Shown here piece after piece: positions 1,929 to 62,622 of a stretch of 64,000 nt of DNA (positions are counted from its first letter, which is position 1; each line of letters starts with the position of its first letter). Location of the stretch: NCBI GenBank assembly GCA_002339345.1, contig DDKM01000032.1:13259-77258 (forward strand). Reading direction: 5' to 3'. The position numbers and the translations under genes were made by a program. The notes beneath the pieces were generated by a model. The model saw nothing but the letters and a program-made list of their open reading frames with translations. It searched no databases and was not told where the DNA came from. The DNA comes from Firmicutes bacterium UBA2598 (GTDB lineage: Bacteria > Bacillota > PH28-bin88).

Positions 1929-2390
1929 GTGAAATTCCGGCTGGGAGAAGATGTGAACAAGAACCACATTAAGCTCAGGGTACGGTTGGACTACAAGGGA
2001 GAGACGAAACCGGGACGTTTCTTCTTTGGGGGAAAGTCCACCGAAAAGGTGGCGGAGGATACCCGGGAGCAGCGGATTGCGTTGTTACGGAACATTCCCA
2101 TGCAGGGAATTGTGGTTGAAGACATAGACACCACCATGGAAATTTATACCGCCCCGGATGAGACGACTGGGGAGGATATCGCATACGCACCTGCAGTGTT
2201 AACGGTTTGTGCCGATACGTTGGAAGATGTCTTACGGCTGGTCATGCGGGAAGAATTCCGACGGGTTGAAGTTATGGAACCGGATCAACTTACATTATCC
2301 AGATATGAAATTGAAAGACTTTTATTTAAGGTGTCGGATGAGTTTGGACAAGCTCGGCAGTTATGGGAAAGGCGATTAAACAGCAAGTAA
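1929..2390 (+). CDS. Hypothetical conserved protein (153 aa)
   Basis: GTG-initiated ORF with coding-like composition that fills the gap between cobO and the FAH gene. No family recognised. Confidence 0.45.
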   Translation: MKFRLGEDVNKNHIKLRVRLDYKGETKPGRFFFGGKSTEKVAEDTREQRIALLRNIPMQGIVVEDIDTTMEIYTAPDETTGEDIAYAPAVLTVCADTLEDVLRLVMREEFRRVEVMEPDQLTLSRYEIERLLFKVSDEFGQARQLWERRLNSK

Positions 2391-2458
2391 TGTGCATGGC
2401 CCACGGCCTTAATGGTAATCAGGAAACTAAAAGAGACCCATCCATTGGAGGAGCGAGT

Positions 2459-3217
2459 ATGAAACTAGCAAGATTTTGGGACGGCGAGAAGGTACAAGCA
2501 GGGATCATCACCGGTGAAGAAGTAGCAGAGCTTCGGGGTTCCATCTATGGTGGGTATGAATTGACCGGTCGCCACTTCCCCTTTAGGGAAATGTCTCTCC
2601 TTGCTCCGTGCGAACCTACCAAGGTAGTCTGTGTTGGACTGAATTACCGTGATCACGCGGAAGAACTTCATTTAGACATACCAGTTGAACCGGTACTCTT
2701 TTTAAAACCACCGTCATCTGTCATAGGGCATCGTCAGCCCATTTGTAAACCCAAGATTTGCCGCCGGCTGGACCATGAAGCTGAACTAGCGGTGGTGATT
2801 AAAGAAGTCACTCGCAGTGTCTCCCCAACGGAGGCGAAGGATAAAATTCTGGGTTACACCTGTGCCAATGATGTTACAGCCCGGGACTTACAACCAAAGA
2901 CCGGGCAATGGACCCTGGCTAAATCCTTTGACACCTTTTGCCCATTAGGTCCCTTTATCGTCACCGATGTTGATCCAACCAACTTGGAGGTTTCCCTTTT
3001 TCTCAACGGATCCATCCGGCAGAAATCCTCCACGCATCAAATGATCTTTCCGGTATATGATCTTGTTAGCTATATTTCCCGGGTAATGACCCTATTCCCC
3101 GGTGATGTGATCCTGACAGGCACCCCCGGCGGTATAGGCTGCATGGAGCCGGGTGATGAGGTTATTGTGGAAATTTCGGGTGTAGGACGTCTGATAAACG
3201 AAATAATTGAGGGATAG
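2459..3217 (+). CDS. Fumarylacetoacetate hydrolase (FAH) family protein
   Basis: Motifs KVVCVGLNYRDHAEE, HEAELAVVI, YTCANDVTARD and GDVILTGTPGG are FAH-family hallmarks. I moved the start to ATG 2459 (MKLARF...), which is preceded by GGAGGAG. The ORF-track start at 2363 overlaps the previous gene. Confidence 0.85.
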   Translation: MKLARFWDGEKVQAGIITGEEVAELRGSIYGGYELTGRHFPFREMSLLAPCEPTKVVCVGLNYRDHAEELHLDIPVEPVLFLKPPSSVIGHRQPICKPKICRRLDHEAELAVVIKEVTRSVSPTEAKDKILGYTCANDVTARDLQPKTGQWTLAKSFDTFCPLGPFIVTDVDPTNLEVSLFLNGSIRQKSSTHQMIFPVYDLVSYISRVMTLFPGDVILTGTPGGIGCMEPGDEVIVEISGVGRLINEIIEG

Positions 3218-3235: not shown

Positions 3236-4480
3236 ATGATTATGTCTTTACCGGTGCTGGTAGTTGGGGGTGGTCCTGCGGGCATCATGGCGGCGATCTG
3301 TTCCGCCACCAACGGCGTACCGGTTGTCCTGTTGGAAAAGGGCAGGCGTTTAGGTACAAAAATGCTCATTACCGGTAAGGGCCGGTGCAATCTCACCAAT
3401 GTTGCTCCCGTTACGGAAATGATTACCCAATATCCCGGCAACGGACAGTTTTTGTATAGTGCCTTGCATACCTTTGACAACCAGGCCTTGATTTCCCTCT
3501 TGTCAGACCTGGGTGTAAAGGTCAAGGTGGAGAGAGGAGGCAGAGTATTTCCAGCCAGTGACATGGCCAAGGATGTGGTTTCCGCCCTGACGGGATACCT
3601 GTACCGTCTGAGAGTGGACATCCGCCTGAACCATCAAGCAACAGGAGTCTCTGTACAGGAAGGTAGAGCAACAGGAATTACCGTGGGGGACTGTTTGGTT
3701 AGGGGACGTGCAGTTGTTGTAGCGACTGGAGGTCTGTCATACCCTCGAACGGGCAGTACCGGCGATGGGTATCGGTGGGCAAAGGATCTGGGACATACCG
3801 TCAATCCCCCCCTACCATCCCTGGTTCCGTTGGAAACAGCGGAAGAATGGCCAACTCAACTACAAGGCCTTACCCTCAAAAACGTAACGGTTAAGGCAGT
3901 GGGCGATGAGGTTCTGGGAAGCGAATTCGGGGAGATGATGTTCACCCACTTTGGTTTGACAGGTCCCATCATACTTACCCTTAGCCGGTATATTGTCCAG
4001 TACCAGGCCAAAAAACCCGGACCGGTTACTCTGTTCATAAATATGAAACCTGCCCTGAAACCTGAGCAGCTGGATGCCCGTATCCAACGTGATTTTCTAA
4101 AATTCAGCCGCCGGCAGTTGAAAAACGCACTAGATGATCTCCTGCCCCAGAGGATGATTCCGGTATTTATTGAGTTGTCAGGCATACCAGGGGATAAATA
4201 TGTACATCAAGTTACCCGGGTTGAACGACAGCATCTTGTTTCCTTGTTACAGGCCATTCCTGTAAGAATTACCGGCACTCGACCTCTGGCTGAGGCTATA
4301 GTCACTGCAGGGGGGGTATCGGTAAAAGAGGTTAACCCAAGAACAATGGAATCCAACCTGGTTTCGGGCCTTTTTTGGGCTGGTGAGGTTTTGGATGTCG
4401 ATGGTTTCACAGGAGGCTATAATTTGCAGGCCGCCTTTTCCACTGGCTATGTGGCTGGTAAATACGCTGCATCCCGGTAA
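3236..4480 (+). CDS. NAD(P)/FAD-dependent oxidoreductase, HI0933/BaiN-like flavoprotein
   Basis: N-terminal GGGPAGIMAA dinucleotide-binding motif, GKGRCNLTN, and C-terminal GGYNLQAAFSTG are typical of the HI0933/YhiN family. Confidence 0.85.
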   Translation: MIMSLPVLVVGGGPAGIMAAICSATNGVPVVLLEKGRRLGTKMLITGKGRCNLTNVAPVTEMITQYPGNGQFLYSALHTFDNQALISLLSDLGVKVKVERGGRVFPASDMAKDVVSALTGYLYRLRVDIRLNHQATGVSVQEGRATGITVGDCLVRGRAVVVATGGLSYPRTGSTGDGYRWAKDLGHTVNPPLPSLVPLETAEEWPTQLQGLTLKNVTVKAVGDEVLGSEFGEMMFTHFGLTGPIILTLSRYIVQYQAKKPGPVTLFINMKPALKPEQLDARIQRDFLKFSRRQLKNALDDLLPQRMIPVFIELSGIPGDKYVHQVTRVERQHLVSLLQAIPVRITGTRPLAEAIVTAGGVSVKEVNPRTMESNLVSGLFWAGEVLDVDGFTGGYNLQAAFSTGYVAGKYAASR

Positions 4481-4507: not shown

Positions 4508-4924
4508 ATGAATCAGGTGGGCAGTAAAAAAACCGCCGCAGTTGCAATTCAGATGGCCATCACAGAAACAAGGGAAGAGGAAAACGAACTGAAGGTGAAG
4601 TATCAGACCATGGGAATAAAGACGGCCGCCGTGGATTACGGTGGTGAATACATTAATGCGGTGAAAAAGATTGTGGAGCGGGCTGTAGTAGCAGCCAAAA
4701 GAGAAGGTGTGATCAAGGAAACCCATGCCGATGAAGGTGCTGTGGCCGGGGCAACCCGCGAGGCACTATCACAGATTATGCCAAAGGCAATCGGTTTAAA
4801 TGTTGGTGGAAAAATCGGTATTGCCCGGTATCGTGATCATGTAAGTGTGGCAGTTTTCTTTGGGATTGGGTTGTTACATCTTGATGAAGTCGGCATTGGC
4901 CTTGGACATCGGGCTGTCCCCTAG
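4508..4924 (+). CDS. HutP-family RNA-binding protein (hut-operon positive-regulator fold), not linked to hut genes here
   Basis: The 138-aa product carries ...[15 protein letters not shown]...[13 protein letters not shown]...[26 protein letters not shown] recognise this as the conserved core of HutP-family proteins. A strong SD (GGGGGGAGAG) precedes the ATG. Confidence 0.75.
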
Positions 4925-4937
4925 GAGGTTTTTATCA

Positions 4938-5327
4938 ATGACTGTGCGGGGTATTCGCGGGGCAATTTCCGTTGAGGAAAACAATCCCGTAGCTATATTG
5001 GCGGCGACACGTCTTTTGCTGGAAGAGATGGTAGATAGGAACGGCCTGATTATTGATGATCTGGTTAGTGTCTTTTTTACCGTTACCAGTGACTTAAATG
5101 CCGCTTTTCCGGCCTTTGCAGCAAGGGAGATGGGGTGGAAGACCGTACCTATGCTTTGCGCTACCGAAATTGATGTACCAGGAGCCCCTGGTGGTATAAT
5201 CAGGGTGTTAATTCACACCAACACACCAAAAAGTCAGGCCGAGATTCGCCATGTTTACCTGGGAGCAGCAGCTTCACTCCGTCCTGATATTGAGCCATCA
5301 CCTGGACCGGGAGGGGCCAATGGATGA
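4938..5327 (+). CDS. aroH: Chorismate mutase, AroH class
   Basis: [16 protein letters not shown]...[16 protein letters not shown]... is the AroH-type chorismate mutase signature. The start was refined to ATG 4938 behind AGGAGG at 4923-4928. Confidence 0.85.
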
Positions 5328-5893
5328 TCGTGGTGATTGACAATTACGATTCTTTCACCTACAACCTGGTGCAATACCTGCAGGAATTGGGTCGCAGGGT
5401 TGTGGTTTACCGTAATGACGCGATCACAACCCAAGGGATCATTAATATAAATGCCACCCATATAATCTTATCACCAGGGCCCTGCACTCCCAATGAGGCA
5501 GGCATATCCATGGAGGTAATTAAGACACTGGGTTCACAAATCCCCATTTTAGGCGTATGTTTAGGGCACCAATGCATTGGACAGGTTTTTGGTGCGCAGG
5601 TGGTCAGATCGCCACAGCTAATGCACGGTAAAACCTCTCGTGTTTTCCACGATGGTCGTACGATTTTCCGCAATATCGAGAATCCTTTTACTGCTACCCG
5701 CTATCACTCCCTCATCCTTAGCCCGGAAACCATCCCGCCTAACTTGGAGGTTTCTGCGGAAACACAACAAGGAGAGATCATGGCAGTGCGCCACAGGGAA
5801 TTGCCCATTGAAGGGGTGCAGTTTCATCCCGAATCAATACTAACAACCCAAGGCAGGCAGATGCTAGAGAACTTTTTACACTATTATACTTAA
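5324..5893 (+). CDS. pabA: Glutamine amidotransferase component II of anthranilate/aminodeoxychorismate synthase (TrpG/PabA)
   Basis: [26 protein letters not shown] (catalytic Cys) and GVQFHPES are class-I GATase TrpG/PabA motifs. The start codon overlaps the aroH stop. Confidence 0.9.
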
Positions 5894-5916: not shown

Positions 5917-6492
5917 ATGCCTCCTACGTTGATGGTAAGCGGCATTACCGAAATAACCAGCGTTTCAGAATTACTGTTAGTCGGCACGGGGGCTGTAGGA
6001 TTTCGGTTTATACCAGGAGCCGGGGGTGTAGACCCGGAATGGAGCAGGGAAGTAGTGCTGCAATTGCCTCCCCTGATTGTTCCTGTAGGTATTTTTGCCA
6101 ATCAACCAAAACACGAGGTGCAGGAGATCGCCAGCTTTTGTCGGCTGGATGTCTTACTTTTTATCGGAGAGGAGGTCCCTCAGTATTTTCATGGTTTTAG
6201 CCACCGCGTTATTAAGGGACTTGATTTGTGTAGCCGGGTAGAAGAGAAGGCCAAAGGTTATGCTGACAGGGTATCGGGGTTCCAATTATCTATCCCATCT
6301 GATCAACTGACCGCCCCAGATCACCTTCTGCAGCTTAAACGTCTATCAACCCGGTACCACGTAGTGGTTGCGGGCAGTCTGCCGAAACATACCATGGATT
6401 TGGCCGAGGAATCAGGGGCTGGCGGCGTTCACCTGGATTGGTCAGCATTAAAAGGTTGTAGGGAACATCTTGTATCACCTCTCAGGATATGA
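5917..6492 (+). CDS. Phosphoribosylanthranilate isomerase (TrpF)-like protein, divergent and possibly non-catalytic
   Basis: The N-terminal half aligns by eye to TrpF (VSGIT..., GAVGFRFIPG..., LPPLIVPVGIFAN...EVQEIA...LDVLLFIGEE). The usual KICGIT cysteine is Ser, and the C-terminal GG(S/T)G..FDW phosphate-binding motif is not visible. Confidence 0.55.
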   Translation: MPPTLMVSGITEITSVSELLLVGTGAVGFRFIPGAGGVDPEWSREVVLQLPPLIVPVGIFANQPKHEVQEIASFCRLDVLLFIGEEVPQYFHGFSHRVIKGLDLCSRVEEKAKGYADRVSGFQLSIPSDQLTAPDHLLQLKRLSTRYHVVVAGSLPKHTMDLAEESGAGGVHLDWSALKGCREHLVSPLRI

Positions 6493-6558
6493 TAATATCC
6501 ATAACAAGCCAATGTAGTCGGCTTGAAAAGCCACTGTAATGGGCTTGAAGTTGAACGG

Positions 6559-6599
6559 TAGGAAAATTTTAGGATGTGCAGGATGGTAGGATGGTAGGG
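6559..6599 (+). promoter_or_regulatory. Cluster of five YAGGR repeats (UAGGA x3, CAGGA, UAGGG; three AGGAUG units) in the aroF leader: candidate RNA-binding-protein site
   Basis: Read directly: tAGGA at 6559, tAGGA at 6570, cAGGA at 6579, tAGGA at 6587 and tAGGG at 6595, with start-to-start spacings of 11, 9, 8 and 8 nt. The 3' end forms a tandem aggatggt-aggatggt-aggg. Confidence 0.5.
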
Positions 6600-6625
6600 A
6601 GCATCGTTGAATGCACGATCACTCC
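6597..6625 (+). promoter_or_regulatory. Putative antiterminator hairpin of the aroF leader
   Basis: GGGAG(6597-6601) pairs with CUCC(U) (6622-6626), and AUCGU(6603-6607) pairs with ACGAU(6615-6619), with a 7-nt loop. This hairpin shares residues 6618-6625 with the terminator 5' arm, so the two structures exclude each other. Confidence 0.45.
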
Positions 6626-6646
6626 TGGTGGGGTGATTTTTGCTTT
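6617..6646 (+). terminator. Intrinsic terminator (attenuator) in the leader upstream of aroF
   Basis: GAUCACUCC (6617-6625), loop UGGU, GGGGUGAU(U) (6630-6638), followed by UUUUGCUUU. It lies about 100 nt upstream of the aroF start and inside an operon-internal untranslated region. Confidence 0.6.
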
Positions 6647-6746
6647 CACAACTTCTTCCTTTCGTCCGGCTAAAGGGGGGATTGGTTAAACTACTGGATT
6701 TAGGCCATTCTAGAAAAGCTGGAGAAAATGGCAGGGGGGAAGTGCG

Positions 6747-7775
6747 TTGATAGTTGTGATGTCTCATGGAGCAACCAGTGAACAAATTGCCGCCGTTGAA
6801 GAGCGGTTGAAAAAATCCGGGTTTGATGTCCACCGTTCTGAAGGGGTTTCCCGGACAGTTCTCGGTGTAATTGGGGAGGATACCAAAGCCAAGTTACCCA
6901 GTATGGCTCTGGAAGCCATGGCCGGTGTGGATAAGGTTGTGCCAATCTTACAGCCTTTTAAACTGGCAGGTAGGGAATTTAAACCCGATGACACTGTAAT
7001 CAAAATCGGTGATTTGCGTCTTGGGGGTCCTGATATCCACATTATAGCTGGTCCATGTGCAGTTGAAAACCGGGAACAAATGCTGGAGACAGCCTGTATT
7101 GTTAAGAACGCAGGGGCCACAATGTTACGGGGTGGGGCCTTTAAACCCCGCACTTCTCCTTACAGTTTCCAGGGACTGGAGGAAAAGGGGCTGGAAATCC
7201 TGGCCGAAGCTCGAGCCAAGACCGGCTTGCCGGTGGTAACTGAGGTAATTGATGTGAACACCGTGCCCCTTGTGGCAGAGTATGCTGATGTATTGCAGGT
7301 GGGAGCCCGGAACATGCAGAATTTTCGCTTGCTACGTGAACTTGGTCGTATCCGCAAGCCGGTAATGCTTAAGAGGGGGCCTTCTGCTACCATCGAGGAA
7401 TGGATTTTGGCGGCGGAATATATCATGAGCGGTGGGAATTATGATGTAATCTTTTGCGAGCGGGGCATCCGAACCTTTGAGGTGCATACCCGCAATACAC
7501 TAGACCTAAGTGCTGTGCCCATCCTGAAACACCTGACCCATTTACCGGTGATAGTGGACCCCAGTCACGGCACAGGACGATGGCGTCTTGTACCGGCCAT
7601 GGCCAGAGGGGGATTAGCTGTAGGGGCAGACGGGTTGATGATTGAGGTTCACCCAGATCCCAGCGAAGCCCTTTCTGATGGGCCCCAATCCTTGACGCCG
7701 GAAAACTTCTCCGGTTTAATGGATGAATTGGCCGGTATCGCCACAGTACTGGGAAGGCGGTTTCCGTCAAGCTAA
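6747..7775 (+). CDS. aroF: 3-deoxy-7-phosphoheptulonate (DAHP) synthase, type I-beta with N-terminal ferredoxin-like regulatory domain
   Basis: The TTG start gives MIVVM..., the same N-terminus as the Thermotoga-type DAHPS. Motifs [42 protein letters not shown] and VDPSH are all present. Confidence 0.92.
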
Positions 7776-7791
7776 TCAGGGAGGAGCCAAT

Positions 7792-8889
7792 ATGATCAGC
7801 AAGGTGGCCATTATCGGCATGGGTTTGATAGGGGGATCCATCGGGATGGCCTTAACCTACAGTGGAACTGTAGAACAGGTCACTGGCATCGACCAGGATA
7901 GCCATGCGCTACAATTAGCCATGGAAACAGGGGCAGTGCATACCGCGACACAGGATCTTGTAGCGGGGCTTTCCCAGGCGGATGTTGTTTTTTTGGCCCT
8001 GCCGGTTTCCACCATCATTAACTTGGGAAGCACCATTGGCCCGCTTCTACAGCCCGGCAGCGTGGTGACAGATGTGGGTAGTGTAAAACAGGTGGTTGTC
8101 CAACATATGGAGCGGATCCTCCCTCCGGGAATCAGCTATGTGGGGGGGCATCCCATGGCTGGTTCCGAACGGGTAGGTATCCAGGCTGCAGACAGGTATT
8201 TGTTGGAAAACGCAGCCTACGTCCTAACCCCAACCTCCCGTACCGATCAAAGAGCCTTACAAGTTGTGAGCCACTTGGTCCAGGTCATGGGGGCAAGACC
8301 GATCATATTGGATCCGGTCCAACATGATGAAATGGTAGCTGCTGTCAGCCACCTGCCGCATCTGGTGGCTACAGCTTTGGTACAAACAGCAGCCTTTTTG
8401 GATTCCAAGTGTCCCGGTACTCTGACACTAGCCGCCGGCGGATTCCGCGATGCCACCCGCATAGCGGGGGCTAACCCGGTGATGTGGCGGGATATTTGCT
8501 TGGCTAACCGTGGCCAGTTGTTAAAGGTAATGCAACATTTTCGGGCTACGTTAACGGAACTGGAAGCCCTGATCACAGATGGCCGAGGCGATGAGCTGAT
8601 GGAAGTCTTTCATCACGCCTGTCAGGTGCGGGCACAAATTCCAGCCAAAGCCAAAGGTTTATTACCCCCGTTGGCGGAGGTTGTGGTTACAGTGCCTGAC
8701 CGGCCAGGAATGATCGGCCACTTGGCACAGGTTTTGGGAAATGGCGGGATCAATATTACAGATATCGAAATACTTCGTGTGCGAGAAGGAGAAGGTGGAA
8801 CTATCAGATTGGGGTTTTTAACGGATCAGTCGGCAGATATGGCCGTGGGACTTTTACGTGCCAGTGGTGTTGTGGCCAAACGCAGGTAA
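7792..8889 (+). CDS. tyrA: Prephenate dehydrogenase with C-terminal ACT domain
   Basis: VAIIGMGLIGGSIG Rossmann motif, GGHPMAGSE active-site region, and an ACT-like C-terminus. The start was refined to ATG 7792 behind GGGAGGAG. Confidence 0.9.
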   Translation: MISKVAIIGMGLIGGSIGMALTYSGTVEQVTGIDQDSHALQLAMETGAVHTATQDLVAGLSQADVVFLALPVSTIINLGSTIGPLLQPGSVVTDVGSVKQVVVQHMERILPPGISYVGGHPMAGSERVGIQAADRYLLENAAYVLTPTSRTDQRALQVVSHLVQVMGARPIILDPVQHDEMVAAVSHLPHLVATALVQTAAFLDSKCPGTLTLAAGGFRDATRIAGANPVMWRDICLANRGQLLKVMQHFRATLTELEALITDGRGDELMEVFHHACQVRAQIPAKAKGLLPPLAEVVVTVPDRPGMIGHLAQVLGNGGINITDIEILRVREGEGGTIRLGFLTDQSADMAVGLLRASGVVAKRR

Positions 8890-8920
8890 GGACGGATAGT
8901 GTAATGAGGGGGTTGGGGCT

Positions 8921-10207
8921 ATGCAAAAAGTCATCCAGGCAAAAGGGGGCCTGACAGGGAAGATTACCGTCCCGGGCGATAAATCAATTTCCCACCGTGC
9001 CGCCATGTTAGGTGCTTTGGCGAGAGGCCGAACCGTAATTCACGGATTTTTAAGGGGTGCTGATTGTCTCAGCACCCTGGCCTGTCTTCGTCAATTGGGC
9101 GTGCAAATTAACGAACTCTCCACCGGTGAGATTGAGATTTGGGGGAGGGGATTGGCGTCATTGCATGAGCCATCCACGGTGCTGGATGCCGGTAATTCAG
9201 GTACCACCATGCGCTTGATGGCCGGCATCCTAGCCGGGGCCAAGGGGCTATTTGTACTGTCGGGGGACTCATCTCTCAACAGGCGCCCCATGGCCAGGAT
9301 AATCCAGCCTCTAACCATGATGGGAGGGCGGATATGGGGGCGAGATAATCATACCCTGCCGCCGCTGGCGATTTATGGGGAAAAGCTTCGTGGCATTGTC
9401 TACCAGTCACCGGTGTCCAGTGCCCAAGTCAAATCGGCAATACTCTTGGCAGGGTTGGGTGCTTCTGGTCAGACAACCATAATAGAACCAACCCGTTCAA
9501 GGGATCATACCGAGAGAATGATCCGGGGTTTTGGCGGAAAACTGTCGGTAAACGGAACAACGGTATCCCTGGCAGGACCCCAGGAATTGACTGGGTGTGA
9601 AATAACAGTCCCTGGGGACATCTCTTCTGCCGCTTTCTGGCTGGTGGCGGGTGCCATTGTACCAGGCTCCGAACTGATGGTCAGTGGAGTAGGGTTAAAT
9701 CCCACCCGCACTGGCATCGTGGATGTTCTGCAACAAATGGGTGCCCGGTTGGAGATTACCAATTACCGGGAAGTTGCCGGTGAACCCGTTGGCGATGTGA
9801 AGGTAAAAGGAGACACGACCTTACGGGGGATTACTATTGCCGGCAGCATGATTCCCCGCTTGGTGGATGAGATACCGGTGATCGCCGTAGCTGCCTTGGT
9901 AGCAAAAGGGGAAACCATTATTAAGGATGCAGCCGAGCTGCGAGTCAAGGAAAGTGATCGCTTGGCTCTCCTGGCTAGTATTCTGAAGAAAATGGGAGCA
10001 ACAGTGACGGAAAACCCCGATGGATTGGTGATTAGTGGTGGGGTGGAGCTCACGGGGATCACCGGTTTGGCACAGGGAGATCACAGGATCGCCATGGCTA
10101 CTGCCATTGCCGGGCTTATCGCACGTGGTGAAACCACGGTGTTGGATTCCCAATGTGTAGACGTCTCCTATCCGTCTTTTTGGACTACCCTGGCAGGATT
10201 GCGCTGA
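8921..10207 (+). CDS. aroA: 3-phosphoshikimate 1-carboxyvinyltransferase (EPSP synthase)
   Basis: Motifs PGDKSISHRA, LDAGNSGTTMRL, RPM.R and KESDR are canonical for AroA. Confidence 0.95.
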   Translation: MQKVIQAKGGLTGKITVPGDKSISHRAAMLGALARGRTVIHGFLRGADCLSTLACLRQLGVQINELSTGEIEIWGRGLASLHEPSTVLDAGNSGTTMRLMAGILAGAKGLFVLSGDSSLNRRPMARIIQPLTMMGGRIWGRDNHTLPPLAIYGEKLRGIVYQSPVSSAQVKSAILLAGLGASGQTTIIEPTRSRDHTERMIRGFGGKLSVNGTTVSLAGPQELTGCEITVPGDISSAAFWLVAGAIVPGSELMVSGVGLNPTRTGIVDVLQQMGARLEITNYREVAGEPVGDVKVKGDTTLRGITIAGSMIPRLVDEIPVIAVAALVAKGETIIKDAAELRVKESDRLALLASILKKMGATVTENPDGLVISGGVELTGITGLAQGDHRIAMATAIAGLIARGETTVLDSQCVDVSYPSFWTTLAGLR

Positions 10208-10218
10208 CGGAGGTATAA

Positions 10219-10917
10219 TTGGACTACGGGGGGGATTGGACATTGGCCTGTATCGATGGTATTGCCATTGACGGGCCAGCCGGAGCAGGCAAGAGCACTG
10301 TCGCCAAGCTGGTGGCCCGTAAGCTCTCTTATCTATATATTGACACCGGGGCCATGTACAGGGCGTTGACCTGGAAAGCTCTAAATTTGCACATGGACTT
10401 GGAAGATCCCGATCTCCTGGGTGATTTGGTAGAAAACACCGATATCCGTCTGGCCGTGGATGCAAGCGGTCAAACCAGGGTATTTTGCGACGGCAGAGAG
10501 ATTACCGATCTCATAAGATCCCCCCAAATCAACAAAGCGGTTTCCCGGGTCGCCTTGATACCAGCAGTGCGGAAACGGATGGTCGAACTGCAAAGGGCAA
10601 TGGCCGAAGGCGGTAAAATAGTGATGGACGGAAGGGATATTGGCACCCATGTCCTGCCCGAAGCGGCAAACAAGTTCTTTCTGACTGCCAGTAGCCAGGA
10701 GAGGGCTATGCGTCGTTATCGCGAACTTAAGGAAAAGGGACATGATGTGACTTTGGAGGAAGTGCTTGCAGAAGTAAAAGAAAGGGATTGGCAGGATTCT
10801 ACACGGAGTGCTGCACCCCTGGCAAAGGCAGAAGGGGCTATTGAAATAGATACCACTGGTCTTTCACCAGATGAGGTGGCCAACTTGGTCATCAGGCATG
10901 TCACCAGGGGGTGTTAG
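10219..10917 (+). CDS. cmk: Cytidylate kinase
   Basis: IAIDGPAGAGKSTVAK P-loop, then YLYIDTGAMYRA, GRDIGT and the C-terminal RD..D..R motif. The TTG start is uncertain; TTG 10243 is an alternative. Confidence 0.9.
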   Translation: MDYGGDWTLACIDGIAIDGPAGAGKSTVAKLVARKLSYLYIDTGAMYRALTWKALNLHMDLEDPDLLGDLVENTDIRLAVDASGQTRVFCDGREITDLIRSPQINKAVSRVALIPAVRKRMVELQRAMAEGGKIVMDGRDIGTHVLPEAANKFFLTASSQERAMRRYRELKEKGHDVTLEEVLAEVKERDWQDSTRSAAPLAKAEGAIEIDTTGLSPDEVANLVIRHVTRGC

Positions 10918-14675: not shown

Positions 14676-16153
14676 ATAGGGAGCGGCTAATAGCCGCCGA
14701 CCCTCCCACACCACCTAGCAAGCGGGTCATACTCATGCGGTTCGTCAAGATTAACGGGCTATCTCTTAGACAGACTTGCCACACCCAGTCTTGCTAGATA
14801 GTTATTGGTAAGGGTCAACTAAGAATGGGGCTGGCTATTGGAGGTTCTCCAGTAGCCCTTTCTTGTATTGGCGAATCAAGAGAACCGGCTCTTGGTGCAG
14901 TTTTTCCAGCTCTTCAATCGCTACTATACTGAACTCCGTTATGCTTACTGCATCAACCCCGCCCGCTCCGCGGTTCTCCCTGACTTTCTCCCAGAGGCTA
15001 ATCTTAGGTTGGTCGGGTGATACACCTTGTCGATCAGTGAATGGACCTTGGTCTTTTGGGTCGTGCCTACTGGGTCCATTGTCATCAGTCTCCTCCGTCC
15101 AAGTTCCGGGTCTTTCACTTAGGGAACTATCCTTCCCTTGCAACATACTCACTGCTTCCTCTGGATTTTCGGCCTCAGTTAAGCGAATCGCCTTCCCCTC
15201 ACAGGCTACCTTTTGGGTAACCTTGAGCCGCCCCTTCTTCCAAGCGGTCCCGGCGTTTCTGTTGTTCGCCGGTTCGAGTGCTATTCGATTCTCCGACTCC
15301 TCGCATCGCTTGGGCATTCACTTCGAGGTTACCTTATAGAATGCCTTACCGGTTATTGTGCTTGTCTGAACAGGACGGACATGCACAAACTACCTCCATC
15401 CCGGCTATCTTTACCCACCGGCCCATTTCGGTGCATCAACCGGACGATACGAGGCCTCCGTGGGTCACGCAGTTATCTTCCGTACCATGCCGCCCGCACA
15501 CACCTTGGTACGACGGGTGGACTAGAACGCCTTCGCCTCCATAGTGCAGGCTCGACCTTGCCCCGTCTTTGGCCGACCGGTTCATCTTTGGGGCAGCCCC
15601 CTTTGATTACGGCCTGGTACTTCTCCTCAAGTCCTCCGGACCCCACCTCGCGATGGGCACCCTGCCTTCCGGGTGTTACCCGGCCCCCGAGGCATTACCC
15701 CCGGATTTGGATATGGGTCTCCTAGTCCGAGACCCAGTGGGATTTTAACCCACCTGACAACTACGCTGCCACGCGCACATTATGGCCTCTGCTGACTTTT
15801 GGCAGTTCAGCCGTACATTACTGCACGGGTTGCCCCTTCAAAGTTCATTTCCACGGCGTACCTGCCAGATCCCCCCGGGTAAGCGTGTATGCTTTCATCC
15901 CATGTACCCGCCGTATCTACTGCATGGGGTTCGGGCAGTGTTGGATTTCGTCGTGTGTTACAAACCCGTCCGCCTCAAGGCAGCCTCCCATAGGGTTTTG
16001 GTGCATCGGGCCGGGACTTTGCCGCCGACTTCCTGCACCACCCACCTGCGTTGGGTCCCCACACCTCGGACACCCTTGCCTTTGGCTAATGGTTCCCACT
16101 GCCAGGCCCATAGCGGACTTTCACCGCCAAACCTACACCCATGCCGGGCGCAC
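14676..16153 (-). mobile_element. Group II intron relic (ribozyme 5' domains plus truncated maturase/RT ORF), antisense to the flanking genes
   Basis: The minus strand begins GUGCGCCCGGCAUGGGUG... at 16153, the group II 5' consensus GUGCG. GC-rich structured RNA follows with no credible sense ORF. It contains an N-terminal RT fragment. The 3' boundary is tentative: ...CCCUAU at 14676 after a hairpin at 14677-14707. Confidence 0.75.
14835..15317 (-). pseudogene. Truncated group II intron reverse transcriptase/maturase (only about 160 aa: N-terminal extension plus RT-0 region)
   Basis: ...ISLWEKVRENRGAGGVDAVSITEF...EELEKLHQE resembles the RT-0/RT-1 start of intron-encoded proteins (..NKGA.GVDG.T..EF...L..L...L). 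The ORF then stops, and RT domains 2-7, X and En are absent. Confidence 0.75.
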
Positions 16154-25546: not shown

Positions 25547-25668
25547 AGACTCTTATCCAGAGAGGTGGAGGGACTGGCCCGATGAAACCCGGCAACCATT
25601 ACCTGCCGCATTATGGGCAGGAAAAGGTGCCAATTCCTGCAGGGCGACAGTCCTGAAAGATAAGAGGA
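25547..25668 (+). promoter_or_regulatory. SAM-I (S-box) riboswitch aptamer
   Basis: CUCUUAUCCAGAGAGGUGGAGGGACUGGCCCGAUGAAACCCGGCAACC...GGUGCCAAUUCCUGCAGG...GAUAAGAGG matches the S-box consensus almost position for position. It lies upstream of methionine-biosynthesis genes. Confidence 0.92.
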
Positions 25669-33400: not shown

Positions 33401-33478
33401 CGGGGCGTAGCTCAGTTTGGCTAGAGCGCTACCTTGGGGTGGTAGAGGCCGCTGGTTCAAGTCCAGTCGCTCCGACCA
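33401..33478 (+). tRNA. tRNA-Pro (anticodon GGG), CCA encoded
   Basis: The cloverleaf was read by eye. Acceptor CGGGGCG/CGCUCCG; anticodon stem CUACC/GGUAG with loop UUGGGGU; T-arm GCUGG-UUCAAGU-CCAGU; discriminator A followed by CCA. Confidence 0.9.
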
Positions 33479-62534: not shown

Positions 62535-62622
62535 GCGGCAGTGGCGGAATTGGCAGACGCGCTAGATTCAGGGTCTAGTGGGCTTTACGCTCGTGGGGGT
62601 TCAAGTCCCTTCTGCCGCACCA
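62535..62622 (+). tRNA. tRNA-Leu (anticodon CAG), long variable arm, CCA encoded
   Basis: Acceptor GCGGCAG/CUGCCGC. Anticodon stem CUAGA/UCUAG with loop UUCAGGG. Long variable arm GGGCUUUACGCUCGUGG. T-loop GGUUCAAGUCC. Ends ACCA. Confidence 0.9.

What the first reader, a model, noticed from the sequence alone, without database searches (positions are those of the whole stretch)
6515..6646. Operon-internal attenuator upstream of aroF: five YAGGR/AGGAUG repeats abutting mutually exclusive antiterminator and terminator hairpins
A 254-nt untranslated leader lies between the TrpF-like gene stop (6492) and the DAHP synthase start (6747).

Read directly from the sequence:
- UAGGA at 6559, UAGGA at 6570, CAGGA at 6579, UAGGA at 6587 and UAGGG at 6595.
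- Three of these units are AGGAUG, and the last ones form the tandem aggatggt-aggatggt-aggg.
- A further UAG lies at 6515.

Immediately 3' is a hairpin GGGAG/CUCC + AUCGU/ACGAU (6597-6625). It shares the segment AUCACUCC (6618-6625) with a second hairpin, GAUCACUCC-UGGU-GGGGUGAU(U) (6617-6638). That second hairpin is followed by UUUUGCUUU, so it is an intrinsic terminator. The two structures cannot coexist.

The last repeat overlaps the 5' arm of the upstream (antiterminator) hairpin. A factor sitting on the repeats would therefore favour termination. This is the logic of TRAP on (G/U)AG repeats in the B. subtilis trp leader, which also sits inside the aro supraoperon.

The leader does not resemble any riboswitch or T-box I know. 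An alternative reading is that the repeats are CsrA-type A(N)GGA sites, since CAGGAUG is the CsrB repeat unit.
Basis: partly seen in the sequence, partly recalled or inferred. Interest (0 to 1): 0.72.

Follow-up and report, generated by a model that had tools for sequence, protein, structure and literature searches.

The report
HutP-like protein attenuator before aroF
The leader before the DAHP synthase gene carries a conserved array of UAG-type repeats followed by a terminator, most likely bound by a HutP-family RNA-binding protein encoded in the same operon; this points to an undescribed, TRAP-like way of switching off aromatic amino acid synthesis in many anaerobic Firmicutes.

Summary
UAG/CAG triplets lie at 6559, 6570, 6579, 6587 and 6595. 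A terminator lies at 6617-6638 with a U-tract, and an alternative hairpin at 6597-6626.

The conserved unit is not AGGAUG or YAGGR. It is an 8-nt unit, GG-YAG-N-A-Y, usually three NAG in exact 8-nt register and never more.

A sequence model built from 22 leaders of other genomes, window excluded, finds 6575-6641 as the only significant hit in 64 kb (40 bits, E=1e-11). No Rfam family matches.

The decisive clue is ORF 4508-4924, which is a HutP-family protein (Pfam E=1.6e-50; HutP fold, TM 0.72-0.78). HutP binds NAG triplets in threes.

In 80 related loci the same arrays lie on the coding strand. They sit upstream of aroF, of the HutP-like gene itself, or over the aroH/aroF ribosome-binding sites. 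Further arrays found in a metagenome scan for the repeat sequence itself sit before aroF, an AroG-type DAHP synthase and an aromatic-amino-acid-type ABC importer.

Best reading: an effector-activated HutP-like protein binds the repeats and favours termination, which is TRAP logic on a HutP scaffold. The direction of control, the effector and the antiterminator are inferred; the antiterminator helix has no covariation support. I found no published description.

The parts
4508..4924 (+). Gene for a 138-aa HutP-family protein, the candidate trans-acting RNA-binding factor
   Evidence: Pfam PF09021 HutP, E=1.6e-50, covering residues 10-135. The AF2 model has pLDDT 82 and the alpha-alpha-beta-alpha-alpha-beta-beta-beta order. 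The top 11 Foldseek PDB hits are all HutP structures, TM 0.72-0.78 at 17-20% identity. The protein is 75-87% identical to proteins in Moorella, Thermincola, Carboxydothermus, Zhaonella and others.
6493..6746 (+). Untranslated leader between the PRAI-like gene and aroF
   Evidence: ORF map and Pfam. No sigma-70-like promoter on the + strand inside it. No Rfam hit with E<=10. The antisense ORFs have no Pfam match.
6557..6578 (+). Upstream, imperfect NAG units: ACGG-UAG(6559)-GAAAAUUU and UAG(6570)-GAUGUG
   Evidence: Read from the sequence. Weak match to the family model at 6550-6563 (E=9). 20 of 34 related attenuators have further full units 13-115 nt upstream of the main cluster.
6579..6601 (+). 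Main cluster: three NAG triplets in exact 8-nt register (CAG 6579, UAG 6587, UAG 6595), ending in the G-run GGGAG (6597-6601)
   Evidence: Pattern occurs once in the window and 0 times in shuffles. Period-8 array by TRF. Same layout in 23 of 34 related attenuators; none has more than three. Unit consensus A-Y-G-G-Y-A-G-N-A-Y-G-G.
6597..6626 (+). Putative antiterminator hairpin: GGGAG:CUCCU plus AUCGU:ACGAU
   Evidence: -8.9 kcal/mol. In the nascent transcript to 6629 the repeats pair with the terminator 5' arm, and blocking 6559-6601 frees that arm. Across 34 leaders the last repeats are more complementary to the terminator 5' arm plus loop than to shuffled versions (-9.3 vs -7.6 kcal/mol, Wilcoxon p=7e-5). 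There is no covariation support.
6617..6646 (+). Intrinsic terminator: 9-bp stem 6617-6625/6630-6638, loop UGGU, U-rich tail
   Evidence: Terminator scan. -12.0 kcal/mol. On a MAFFT alignment of 24 leaders, 79.5% of cells pair, 6 of 9 pairs show changes on both sides, covariation is 0.296 vs 0.222 in shuffles (2/500), and slid controls give 45-66%.
6728..6746 (+). Possible single extra unit AUGG-CAG-GGGGGAAG over the aroF Shine-Dalgarno (weak)
   Evidence: Second-best, non-significant hit of the family model (4.1 bits, E=1.9). It resembles the SD-overlapping arrays of Desulfosporosinus-type loci.
6747..10207 (+). Controlled genes: aroF (DAHP synthase with ferredoxin-like regulatory domain), tyrA (prephenate dehydrogenase), aroA (EPSP synthase)
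   Evidence: Pfam and NCBIfam. The same gene order follows the array in most related loci.

Best explanation
The element is a protein-dependent transcription attenuator that gates aroF-tyrA-aroA.

Proposed mechanism:
- As the leader is transcribed, the NAG array emerges: three triplets in 8-nt register at 6579-6597, with two imperfect units just upstream.
- The HutP-family protein encoded at 4508-4924 is presumably a hexamer with three NAG pockets per face, as in HutP.
- When charged with an effector, probably an aromatic amino acid or a pathway product, it binds the array.
- Binding ties up the last repeats and the G-run GGGAG. These would otherwise pair with CUCC(U) in the 5' arm of the terminator.
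- The terminator 6617-6638 then forms and transcription stops before aroF.
- Without active protein the alternative pairing forms first and RNA polymerase reads through.

In related genomes the same protein-array pair also sits over ribosome-binding sites, giving translational repression, and in front of the regulator's own gene.

Shown here: the sequence features, their conservation and strand bias, the HutP fold, the linkage to aromatic genes, and the terminator.

Inferred: binding itself, the oligomeric state, the effector, the sign of regulation, and the antiterminator.
For: 1. The factor. ORF 4508-4924 is PF09021 HutP (E=1.6e-50) with the HutP fold. HutP recognises NAG triplets in sets of three per hexamer face (PMC2425495; PMC12591593).

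2. The array fits a three-fold face.
- YAG-YAG spacing peaks sharply at 8 nt (48 of about 115 intervals).
- 23 of 34 attenuators have exactly three NAG in register, 11 have two, none has more.

3. Family membership. A model built from 22 leaders of other genomes finds window 6575-6641 at 40 bits, E=1.1e-11. It is the only significant hit in 64 kb.

4. Strand and position in the 80 HutP-like loci plus the window.
- Tandem units: 121 on the coding strand vs 41 on the other, with about 39 expected per strand.
- Array clusters: 108 vs 24.
- 40 clusters lie less than 450 nt upstream of aroF, 16 upstream of the HutP-like gene, and 8 upstream of aroH.
- 34 clusters are followed by a terminator.

5. 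Sign of regulation. At least 13 arrays end within about 30 nt of the aroF or aroH start codon, across the SD, where binding can only repress. An end-product-activated repressor makes both site types act in the same direction.

6. Array-anchored evidence that was not anchored on the protein. Firmicute-type arrays with a terminator found in metagenomes sit before:
- aroF (L132, L186);
- an AroG-type DAHP synthase (L138);
- PF04392 ABC importers (L123, and L150 where the order is HutP-like gene, array, terminator, importer);
- an SSF symporter (L166).
The closest solved relative of the importer's binding protein is 6HNI (E=3.6e-90).

7. Local thermodynamics. Blocking 6559-6601 frees the terminator 5' arm. 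Repeat-to-terminator-arm complementarity exceeds shuffles (p=7e-5).

8. No competing known element. No Rfam hit in the window leader or anywhere in 9 related loci.
Against: - No binding or expression data exist.
- The 80 loci were selected for carrying the HutP-like gene, so co-occurrence there is not an independent test. Only a handful of array-anchored metagenome loci are independent.
- The antiterminator outer helix shows no covariation and is no better than slid or shuffled controls.
- The terminator (-12.0) is more stable than the antiterminator (-8.9), and the full-length MFE contains the terminator. Read-through would need kinetic control.
- Spacers are 5 nt with a conserved sequence, against 4 (2-4) non-conserved nt for HutP.
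- Canonical HutP acts in the opposite direction, as an antiterminator.
- Eight loci have the HutP-like gene but no array nearby.
- Two of the three residues that I recall as the Mg2+/L-His site of HutP (His73, His77) align to Gly. The effector is therefore unknown.
Confidence: 0.62

Rival explanations
1. Same protein and same array, but opposite sign. The HutP-like protein is an antiterminator, like canonical HutP. Termination is the default, and binding to the repeats promotes read-through into aroF, for example when the protein is ligand-free or senses a precursor.
For: Canonical HutP is an antiterminator. In the window the terminator is more stable than the alternative hairpin, and the full-length MFE contains the terminator. 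The antiterminator has no covariation support.
Against: The repeats lie 19-69 nt 5' of the terminator and do not overlap its stem, unlike the hut sites I and II (PMC2425495). Many arrays cover the SD or start codon of aroH or aroF, where binding must repress; a single protein would then act in opposite directions on one pathway. A biosynthetic operon fits end-product repression.
Confidence: 0.12
2. The switch works through translation of a mini-ORF, not through an RNA antiterminator. The G-run that ends the array is the Shine-Dalgarno of a very short leader ORF. A ribosome finishing it masks the terminator's 5' arm and allows read-through. The protein on the repeats blocks this SD, so the terminator forms. 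This is a mechanistic variant of the best explanation rather than an exclusive rival.
For: In 13 of 34 related attenuators an SD-preceded ORF of 3-7 codons ends within -6 to +3 nt of the terminator foot. The shuffled-spacer null gives 6.0 +/- 2.0 (maximum 12 in 500), and neighbouring position windows give 0-1. SD-to-start spacing is 6-9 nt by eye. Ten of 14 peptides contain F, Y or W.
Against: The window has no such ORF. AUG 6611 (9 nt after GGGAG) opens a 20-codon ORF that runs through the terminator (MHDHSWWGDFCFHNFFLSSG), and UUG 6607 opens a 9-codon ORF that ends inside the 3' arm. The A-rich foot of terminators favours UAA there. In several leaders AUG...CAUA is also a palindromic hairpin, so the two signals are confounded. 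Many of the 13 come from related genomes.
Confidence: 0.15
3. The array is bound by a different factor not encoded here, such as a TRAP-like or CsrA-like protein or an unknown RNA-binding protein. The neighbouring HutP-like gene would be unrelated to it.
For: Linkage in the 80 loci is partly by construction. The HutP-like gene also occurs next to cmk without aro genes or arrays. The spacing differs from the HutP consensus.
Against: No TRAP or CsrA homologue in the window or in 80 loci (query sequences recalled from memory). GGA is not conserved in the unit: position +1 after YAG is G in only 51%. There are at most three triplets in register against 11 for TRAP. Arrays flank the HutP-like gene itself in at least 24 loci. 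In the independently found L150 the order is HutP-like gene, array, terminator, importer.
Confidence: 0.08
4. The repeats are a recent slippage duplication without function, next to an ordinary terminator or attenuator governed by something else.
For: The two perfect AGGATGGT copies could arise by slippage.
Against: The unit core is conserved while the N positions vary in 34 attenuators from many genera. The strand bias is strong. The family model built without the window hits it at E=1e-11.
Confidence: 0.02

Closest known systems
HutP and the hut terminator/antiterminator of Bacillus subtilis (PF09021; PDB 1VEA, 1WMQ, 3BOY)
   Same: - Same protein family and fold.
- The RNA target is made of NAG triplets in sets of three, often in two clusters.
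- The regulator gene lies in the same operon, upstream of the controlled terminator. In L150 and many other loci it lies directly upstream.
- Control acts on an intrinsic terminator.
   Different: - The spacer is 5 nt with a conserved sequence (N-A-Y-G-G), against 4 (2-4) non-conserved nt.
- The array lies 5' of the terminator instead of inside its stem.
- The targets are biosynthetic aromatic genes and importers, not histidine catabolism.
- Binding most likely causes termination or translational block, not antitermination.
- His73 and His77, which I recall as the Mg2+/L-His site, align to Gly.
- Sequence similarity is so low that phmmer against PDB finds nothing.
TRAP (MtrB) and the trp leader / trpG, trpP, ycbK operators of Bacillus subtilis
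   Same: - Same regulatory logic: an amino-acid-activated, ring-shaped RNA-binding protein recognising (N)AG triplets.
- Binding 5' of and into the antiterminator favours a terminator.
- Additional sites over ribosome-binding sites.
- An aromatic pathway inside an aro supraoperon.
   Different: - An unrelated protein (11-mer beta-wheel).
- 9-11 triplets with 2-3 nt spacers, against at most 3 in 8-nt register here.
- No mtrB homologue in the window or loci.
- The control extends to the common pathway (aroF, aroH, tyrA, aroA).
PyrR-type attenuation (pyr operon)
   Same: The regulator is encoded in the operon it controls. Effector-bound protein binding to the leader favours the terminator over an antiterminator.
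   Different: PyrR binds a structured anti-antiterminator hairpin, not a single-stranded triplet array. The protein family is unrelated.
CsrA/RsmA A(N)GGA sites
   Same: Some units read AGGAUG or CAGGAUG, and some sites overlap an SD.
   Different: GGA is not the conserved core. Units such as UAGUACGG and UAGAACGG lack it. The strict 8-nt phasing and the three-unit limit are not CsrA features. No csrA is seen nearby.

Membership tests
HutP protein family (PF09021) | Significant match to the family profile over its full length | tested here: met
   E=1.6e-50, 171 bits, profile positions 2-128 of 128.
HutP protein family (PF09021) | HutP fold (alpha-alpha-beta-alpha-alpha-beta-beta-beta) | tested here: met
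   AF2 model pLDDT 82 with exactly this order. The top 11 Foldseek PDB hits are all HutP, TM 0.72-0.78.
HutP protein family (PF09021) | L-His/Mg2+ site (His73, His77, His138 of B. subtilis HutP; residue roles recalled from the 2005 structural papers, not re-read here) | tested here: not met
   His73 aligns to Gly77 and His77 to Gly81 in both MAFFT and hhalign. His138 aligns to Leu125 in MAFFT. The HutP reference sequence was verified as 100% identical to 1VEA_A. The alignment is at about 24% identity, so it is approximate.
HutP protein family (PF09021) | Homohexamer with three NAG pockets per face | not testable with these tools
   Only a single chain could be modelled. The limit of three NAG per cluster is indirect support.
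HutP-type RNA target (hut terminator) | Clusters of three NAG triplets | tested here: met
   Window CAG 6579, UAG 6587, UAG 6595. 23 of 34 related attenuators have exactly three and none has more.
HutP-type RNA target (hut terminator) | Spacers of 4 (2-4) sequence-independent nucleotides (UAG-N4-UAG-N4-UAG) | tested here: not met
   The spacer is 5 nt (period 8) with conserved A, Y, G, G (83%, 78%, 89%, 88%).
HutP-type RNA target (hut terminator) | Sites I and II lie within the terminator hairpin, so that binding opens it (antitermination) | tested here: not met
   The last NAG lies 17-69 nt 5' of the terminator stem. There is no NAG in the window's terminator.
TRAP-regulated leader | 9-11 (G/U)AG repeats separated by 2-3 nt | tested here: not met
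   Five triplets with spacings of 11, 9, 8 and 8 nt. The family-wide period is 8 with at most three in register.
TRAP-regulated leader | mtrB (TRAP) gene in the genome | tested here: inconclusive
   No tblastn hit in the window or in 80 loci (recalled query sequence). Whole genomes were not available.
TRAP-regulated leader | Repeats overlap the 5' part of an antiterminator that excludes the terminator | tested here: inconclusive
   The pairing exists (-8.9 kcal/mol). Complementarity exceeds shuffles in aggregate (p=7e-5). There is no covariation, and slid controls do as well.
CsrA binding sites | Conserved GGA core, typically in hairpin loops | tested here: not met
   G follows YAG in only 51% of 76 units, and many units lack GGA.
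Known cis-regulatory RNA families (T-box, riboswitches, leaders; Rfam 15) | Covariance-model match | tested here: not met
   Nothing at gathering score. Only eukaryotic lncRNA noise at E<=10 in 6300-6900. Zero hits in 9 related loci.
Intrinsic (factor-independent) terminator | GC-rich hairpin followed by a U-tract, with the helix maintained by compensatory change | tested here: met
   9-bp stem plus UUUGCUUU. 79.5% of cells paired, 6 of 9 pairs with double changes, covariation above 498 of 500 shuffles.
Ribosome-mediated (leader peptide) attenuation | Conserved translated leader ORF placed so that the ribosome decides terminator folding | tested here: inconclusive
   13 of 34 relatives have an SD-preceded mini-ORF ending at the terminator foot (null 6.0 +/- 2.0). 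The window does not; its ORFs run into the terminator. The repeat unit itself cannot be coding, since a period of 8 is not a multiple of 3.

The most novel reading that the evidence does not exclude
A large, highly conserved subfamily of HutP-fold proteins acts as the aromatic-pathway attenuation protein of anaerobic Firmicutes (Moorellia, Desulfotomaculia, Desulfitobacteriia, Syntrophomonadia, Thermincolia, Carboxydothermus and others). It would be a functional analogue of TRAP built on an unrelated scaffold.

It would read clusters of three NAG triplets phased every 8 nt, and repress three kinds of target: transcription via terminators, translation via SD-overlapping sites, and its own gene.

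In part of the family it may work by blocking translation of a 3-7 codon mini-ORF whose terminating ribosome would otherwise mask the terminator.
Probability: 0.5. Interest if true: 0.85.

Novelty: new variant of a known kind. Interest (0 to 1): 0.74.

Why it matters
HutP has been treated as a Bacillus-specific curiosity: one operon, one ligand, antitermination. A 2025 review lists it only for B. subtilis, B. cereus and B. anthracis.

Thousands of HutP-family proteins exist in other Firmicutes without hut genes and without an assigned role.

If the reading here is right, several things follow:
- The family has a second, probably larger, function: end-product control of the shikimate and aromatic pathway and of aromatic amino acid uptake.
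- The sign of regulation is inverted relative to HutP, and the effector is different.
- TRAP-type logic evolved twice on unrelated protein rings.
- The absence of T-boxes and riboswitches in these aro/trp supraoperons would be explained.
- The model is directly testable, with a short RNA, a 138-aa protein and a few candidate ligands.
- It would offer a compact protein-RNA switch for acetogens and sulfate reducers of biotechnological interest.

Tried and rejected
- **Rfam.** Searched at gathering score on the whole window and at E<=10 on 6300-6900: nothing relevant. Nine related loci also gave zero hits, so there are no T-boxes.
- **PDB by sequence.** phmmer of the 138-aa protein against PDB gave no hit even at E<=10. 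The link to HutP needed the Pfam profile and the fold search.
- **CsrA reading.** Rejected because GGA is not conserved.
- **TRAP reading.** Rejected on repeat number and spacing. No homologue was found.
- **Leader peptide inside the repeats.** Rejected because the 8-nt period is not a multiple of 3 and ACGG variants lack AUG and UGG.
- **Other window matches to the two-unit pattern.** 22128 (+) was not examined. 56076 (-) is antisense inside an ORF of more than 500 codons and was judged chance. The window has one array.
- **RNAalifold.** It returned no consensus pairs on the MAFFT alignment of 22 leaders because of register problems in the variable spacer. Model R1 is therefore sequence-only.
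- **Antiterminator covariation.** Tested and not found.
- **Array-anchored metagenome scan.** Mostly returned an unrelated class of GC-rich (GGTAGGAC)n/(GTCCTACC)n palindromes. Only a handful of Firmicute-type loci were informative.
- **Literature.** Searches combined HutP with aromatic amino acid, chorismate mutase, shikimate, DAHP, aroF, Clostridia, and 'HutP-like/homolog/family'. None gave a description of this system. Subscription journals are not covered.
- **Antisense ORFs across the leader** (6429-6833, 6700-6945): no Pfam match.
Full report
**1. The observation**

- The PRAI-like gene ends at TGA 6490-6492.
- UAG lies at 6515, 6559, 6570, 6587 and 6595; CAG lies at 6579.
- AGGAUG occurs three times.
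- The tandem aggatggt-aggatggt-aggg spans 6580-6599.
- The hairpin GGGAG/CUCC plus AUCGU/ACGAU spans 6597-6625.
- It shares 6617-6625 with the terminator GAUCACUCC-UGGU-GGGGUGAUU (6617-6638), which is followed by UUUGCUUU.

Independent checks agree. The terminator is picked up by a consensus scan, and the array by Tandem Repeats Finder (period 8, 3.5 copies).

The three-unit pattern YAGNAYGGYAGNAYGGYAG occurs once in 64 kb and never in 100 dinucleotide-preserving shuffles, even with one mismatch allowed.

Rfam 15 has nothing for this region at gathering score or at E<=10.

**2. Gene context**

Pfam and NCBIfam give the following order:

| Coordinates | Gene product |
|---|---|
| 2363-3217 | FAA hydrolase |
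| 3236-4480 | HI0933-like flavoprotein |
| 4508-4924 | 138-aa HutP-family protein (PF09021, E=1.6e-50) |
| 4938-5327 | AroH chorismate mutase |
| 5324-5893 | PabA/TrpG amidotransferase |
| 5917-6492 | weak PRAI-like protein |
| 6493-6746 | the leader |
| 6747-7775 | AroF (DAHP synthase with N-terminal ferredoxin-like domain) |
| 7723-8889 | TyrA |
| 8921-10207 | AroA |
| 10219-10917 | Cmk |

The HutP-family gene is the key. HutP of B. subtilis is an RNA-binding protein that recognises NAG triplets, three per face of a hexamer, in two clusters (PMC2425495 and PMC12591593).

The window protein is too divergent for phmmer to find HutP in the PDB. An AlphaFold2 model (pLDDT 82) nevertheless has the HutP secondary-structure order. 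Its 11 best Foldseek matches in the PDB are all HutP structures (TM 0.72-0.78 at 17-20% identity).

**3. Relatives of the protein**

About 6,500 proteins match it. The best are 75-87% identical, from Moorella/Neomoorella, Thermincola, Carboxydothermus, Zhaonella, Calderihabitans, Metallumcola and Dehalobacterium.

I fetched 80 genomic loci from one-genome-per-species contigs and mapped the window's proteins onto them.

The order HI0933 - HutP-like - aroH - [trp genes or none] - aroF - tyrA - aroA - cmk recurs across many genera:
- Desulfosporosinus, Pelotomaculum, Desulfotomaculum and Desulfofundulus;
- Syntrophomonadaceae, Formimonas and others.

The HutP-like gene is adjacent to aroH in most of these loci. 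In eight loci it sits next to cmk, with or without aroH, and without aroF.

**4. The RNA element is conserved, and its real unit is an 8-mer**

Upstream of aroF in these genomes the same design recurs. Tandem units such as acggUAGuacggUAGggggcg lie 5' of a hairpin (typically CACUCC...GGGGUG) with a U-tract.

Aligned on the triplet, 76 units give the consensus A-Y-G-G-Y-A-G-N-A-Y-G-G: G 86-96% before the triplet, then A 83% and Y 78% after it.

Spacing between successive YAG peaks sharply at 8 nt (48 of about 115 intervals).

Counting NAG in exact 8-nt register, 23 of 34 attenuators have exactly three, 11 have two, and none has more. The window has three (6579, 6587, 6595) plus two imperfect units just upstream. 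Twenty of 34 relatives have further full units 13-115 nt upstream.

A sequence model built from 22 leaders of other genomes, without the window, hits window 6575-6641 at 40 bits, E=1.1e-11. That is the only significant match in the window.

So the element is real, conserved, and a member of a family that has no Rfam entry.

**5. Where the arrays lie**

In the 80 loci plus the window, two-unit matches number 121 on the coding strand and 41 on the other, with about 39 expected per strand. Clusters number 108 versus 24.
- Forty clusters lie within 450 nt upstream of aroF.
- Sixteen lie upstream of the HutP-like gene itself.
- Eight lie upstream of aroH.

Of the 34 clusters that are followed by a terminator, 24 precede aroF and 10 precede the HutP-like gene. 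The latter amounts to a promoter-leader-attenuator arrangement.

At least 13 arrays end within about 30 nt of the aroF or aroH start codon and cover the Shine-Dalgarno. An example is UAGGAUGGUAGAAAGGGG-N7-AUG.

None of nine related loci contains a T-box or any other Rfam family.

**6. A check anchored on the array rather than the protein**

The 80 loci were chosen for the protein, so I also scanned metagenome contigs for the array itself.

Most of the 120 stretches belong to an unrelated class: GC-rich tandem (GGTAGGAC)n followed by inverted (GTCCTACC)n.

The Firmicute-like matches with a terminator lie upstream of:
- aroF (L132, L186);
- an AroG-type DAHP synthase (L138);
- an SSF symporter (L166);
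- a PF04392 / BPD_transp_2 / ABC_tran importer operon (L123). In L150 the order is HutP-like gene, array, terminator, importer.

The importer has the three-gene architecture of TrpXYZ, the tryptophan/tyrosine uptake system (PMC9382623). Its binding protein is closest to PDB 6HNI (E=3.6e-90). As far as I recall, that is the tyrosine-binding lipoprotein CD0873 of C. difficile.

The sample is small, but it points independently to an aromatic amino acid regulon.

**7. Structure and mechanism**

*The terminator is supported.* On an alignment not fitted to structure:
- 79.5% of cells pair;
- 6 of 9 pairs change on both sides;
- covariation exceeds 498 of 500 shuffles;
- slid partners give 45-66%.

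*The antiterminator is only compatible.* GGGAG:CUCCU pairs in 73% of cells, but shuffled and slid controls do as well.

*In aggregate there is some support.* The last repeats are more complementary to the terminator's 5' arm plus loop than to shuffled versions (-9.3 vs -7.6 kcal/mol, Wilcoxon p=7e-5). By eye, in several lineages the repeat itself (GGUAGGA, CAGGAG, GGACG) is the complement of the arm and loop (UCCUACC, CUCCUG, CGUCU).

*In the window*:
- The nascent RNA to 6629 folds with the repeats paired to the terminator arm (-17.5 kcal/mol).
- Blocking 6559-6601 leaves that arm free (-4.0 kcal/mol).
- The terminator alone is -12.0 and the alternative hairpin -8.9 kcal/mol.
- The full-length MFE contains the terminator, so read-through would need kinetic control.

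*The sign of regulation is inferred from coherence.* SD-covering arrays can only repress. An array placed 5' of a terminator, not inside it, can favour the terminator by removing a competitor. A biosynthetic operon and an importer are both sensibly repressed by their end product.

This is TRAP logic. The protein, however, is HutP-like, and the array geometry (three triplets per cluster) is HutP-like too.

**8. What differs from HutP**

- Spacers are 5 nt and conserved, rather than 4 (2-4) nt and free.
- The sites lie outside the terminator stem.
- His73 and His77 of B. subtilis HutP, which I recall as ligands of the Mg2+/L-His site, align to Gly77 and Gly81 in both MAFFT and hhalign alignments. 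The reference sequence was verified as identical to 1VEA_A.

The effector is therefore probably not histidine. I cannot say what it is.

**9. A second possible mechanism**

In 13 of 34 relatives, the G-run that closes the array is followed 6-9 nt later by a start codon. The resulting ORF has 3-7 codons (MSYFSD, MSNWLK, MRLWSV, MFAYSLV, MCLQSD, MFT and others). Its stop ends within -6 to +3 nt of the terminator foot.

Shuffled spacers give 6.0 +/- 2.0, and neighbouring position windows give 0-1.

A terminating ribosome there would mask the terminator arm, and the bound protein would block the ORF's SD. The sign of regulation would be the same.

The window lacks such an ORF. AUG 6611 opens a 20-codon ORF through the terminator, with UGG UGG in its loop. 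The signal is also confounded with A-rich terminator feet and with a palindromic hairpin. I keep it as a variant, not the main model.

**10. Alternatives rejected**

- CsrA sites: GGA is not conserved.
- TRAP: wrong number and spacing of repeats, and no homologue found.
- Riboswitch or T-box: no Rfam hit, and a phased single-stranded repeat is typical of a protein site.
- Leader peptide within the repeats: the period is 8.
- Chance duplication: contradicted by the conservation.

**11. Novelty**

Literature searches found HutP described only for the hut operon of Bacillus. There was no paper linking the family to aromatic genes. Subscription journals are not covered, so prior description cannot be excluded.

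I rate it a new variant of a known kind. The scaffold (HutP) and the logic (TRAP) are both known, but the combination, the target pathway, the array geometry and the sign of regulation are new.

Noticed in passing
window 6506-6549 (+): A 22-nt tandem direct repeat (86% match) just 5' of the NAG array. Each copy is a small hairpin AAGCC-N9-GGCUU (AAGCCAAUGUAGUCGGCUU and AAGCCACUGUAAUGGGCUU). No U-tract follows and the function is unknown.
   Followed up: no
window 6607-6673 (+); related loci L021, L025, L026, L029, L033, L036, L041, L042, L048, L050, L058, L065, L080, L006: Mini-ORFs of 3-7 codons with a G-rich SD end at the terminator foot in 13-14 related leaders, and 10 of 14 contain F, Y or W. 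In the window, AUG 6611 instead opens MHDHSWWGDFCFHNFFLSSG*, which runs through the terminator with UGG UGG in the terminator loop.
   Followed up: partly
window 6728-6746 (+): A single unit AUGG-CAG-GGGGGAAG lies over the aroF Shine-Dalgarno. It is the second-best but non-significant hit of the family model (E=1.9). It could be a weak translational operator like those of Desulfosporosinus-type loci.
   Followed up: partly
metagenome loci L082-L201 (e.g. L082 4495, L089 2921/3001, L093 6520/6584, L174): A separate, widespread class in GC-rich soil and sediment contigs: tandem 8-mers (GGTAGGAC)n, a short spacer, then the inverted (GTCCTACC)n, forming long perfect palindromes. It is unrelated to aro genes or HutP-like genes and looks like a repetitive extragenic hairpin family.
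   Followed up: no
L017 ~7920-7935, L034, L046, L077 (Desulfosporosinus leaders of the HutP-like gene): Directly after the terminator U-tract comes CUACCAUUC, the exact complement of the repeat GAAUGGUAG about 90 nt upstream. This suggests a long-range pairing that encloses the terminator (read by eye).
   Followed up: no
L030, L053, L054, L055, L060, L067, L072, L079: Here the HutP-like gene, with or without aroH, is followed directly by cmk-plsC-like-ispH/rpsA-like genes. There is no aroF and no detectable array. Its targets there, if any, must be elsewhere in the genome.
   Followed up: partly
window 5917-6492 (+): The 'TrpF-like' gene is only a weak, partial PRAI match (Pfam E=6e-6 over residues 8-113; NCBIfam scores far below cut-offs). 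It sits with pabA/trpG but without trpE, D, C, B or A, so it may not be a true PRA isomerase.
   Followed up: no
window 25550-25666 (+); 15768-16055 (-); 33401-33475 and 62535-62619 (+): Rfam hits elsewhere in the window: a SAM-I riboswitch (92 bits), group II intron domains D1-D4 on the minus strand, and two tRNAs.
   Followed up: no
window 6747 vs 6759; 7723-7775: The aroF start is ambiguous: TTG 6747 has a good SD spacing, while a public gene call uses ATG 6759. The listed tyrA ORF overlaps aroF by 53 nt, so its true start is probably further downstream.
   Followed up: no
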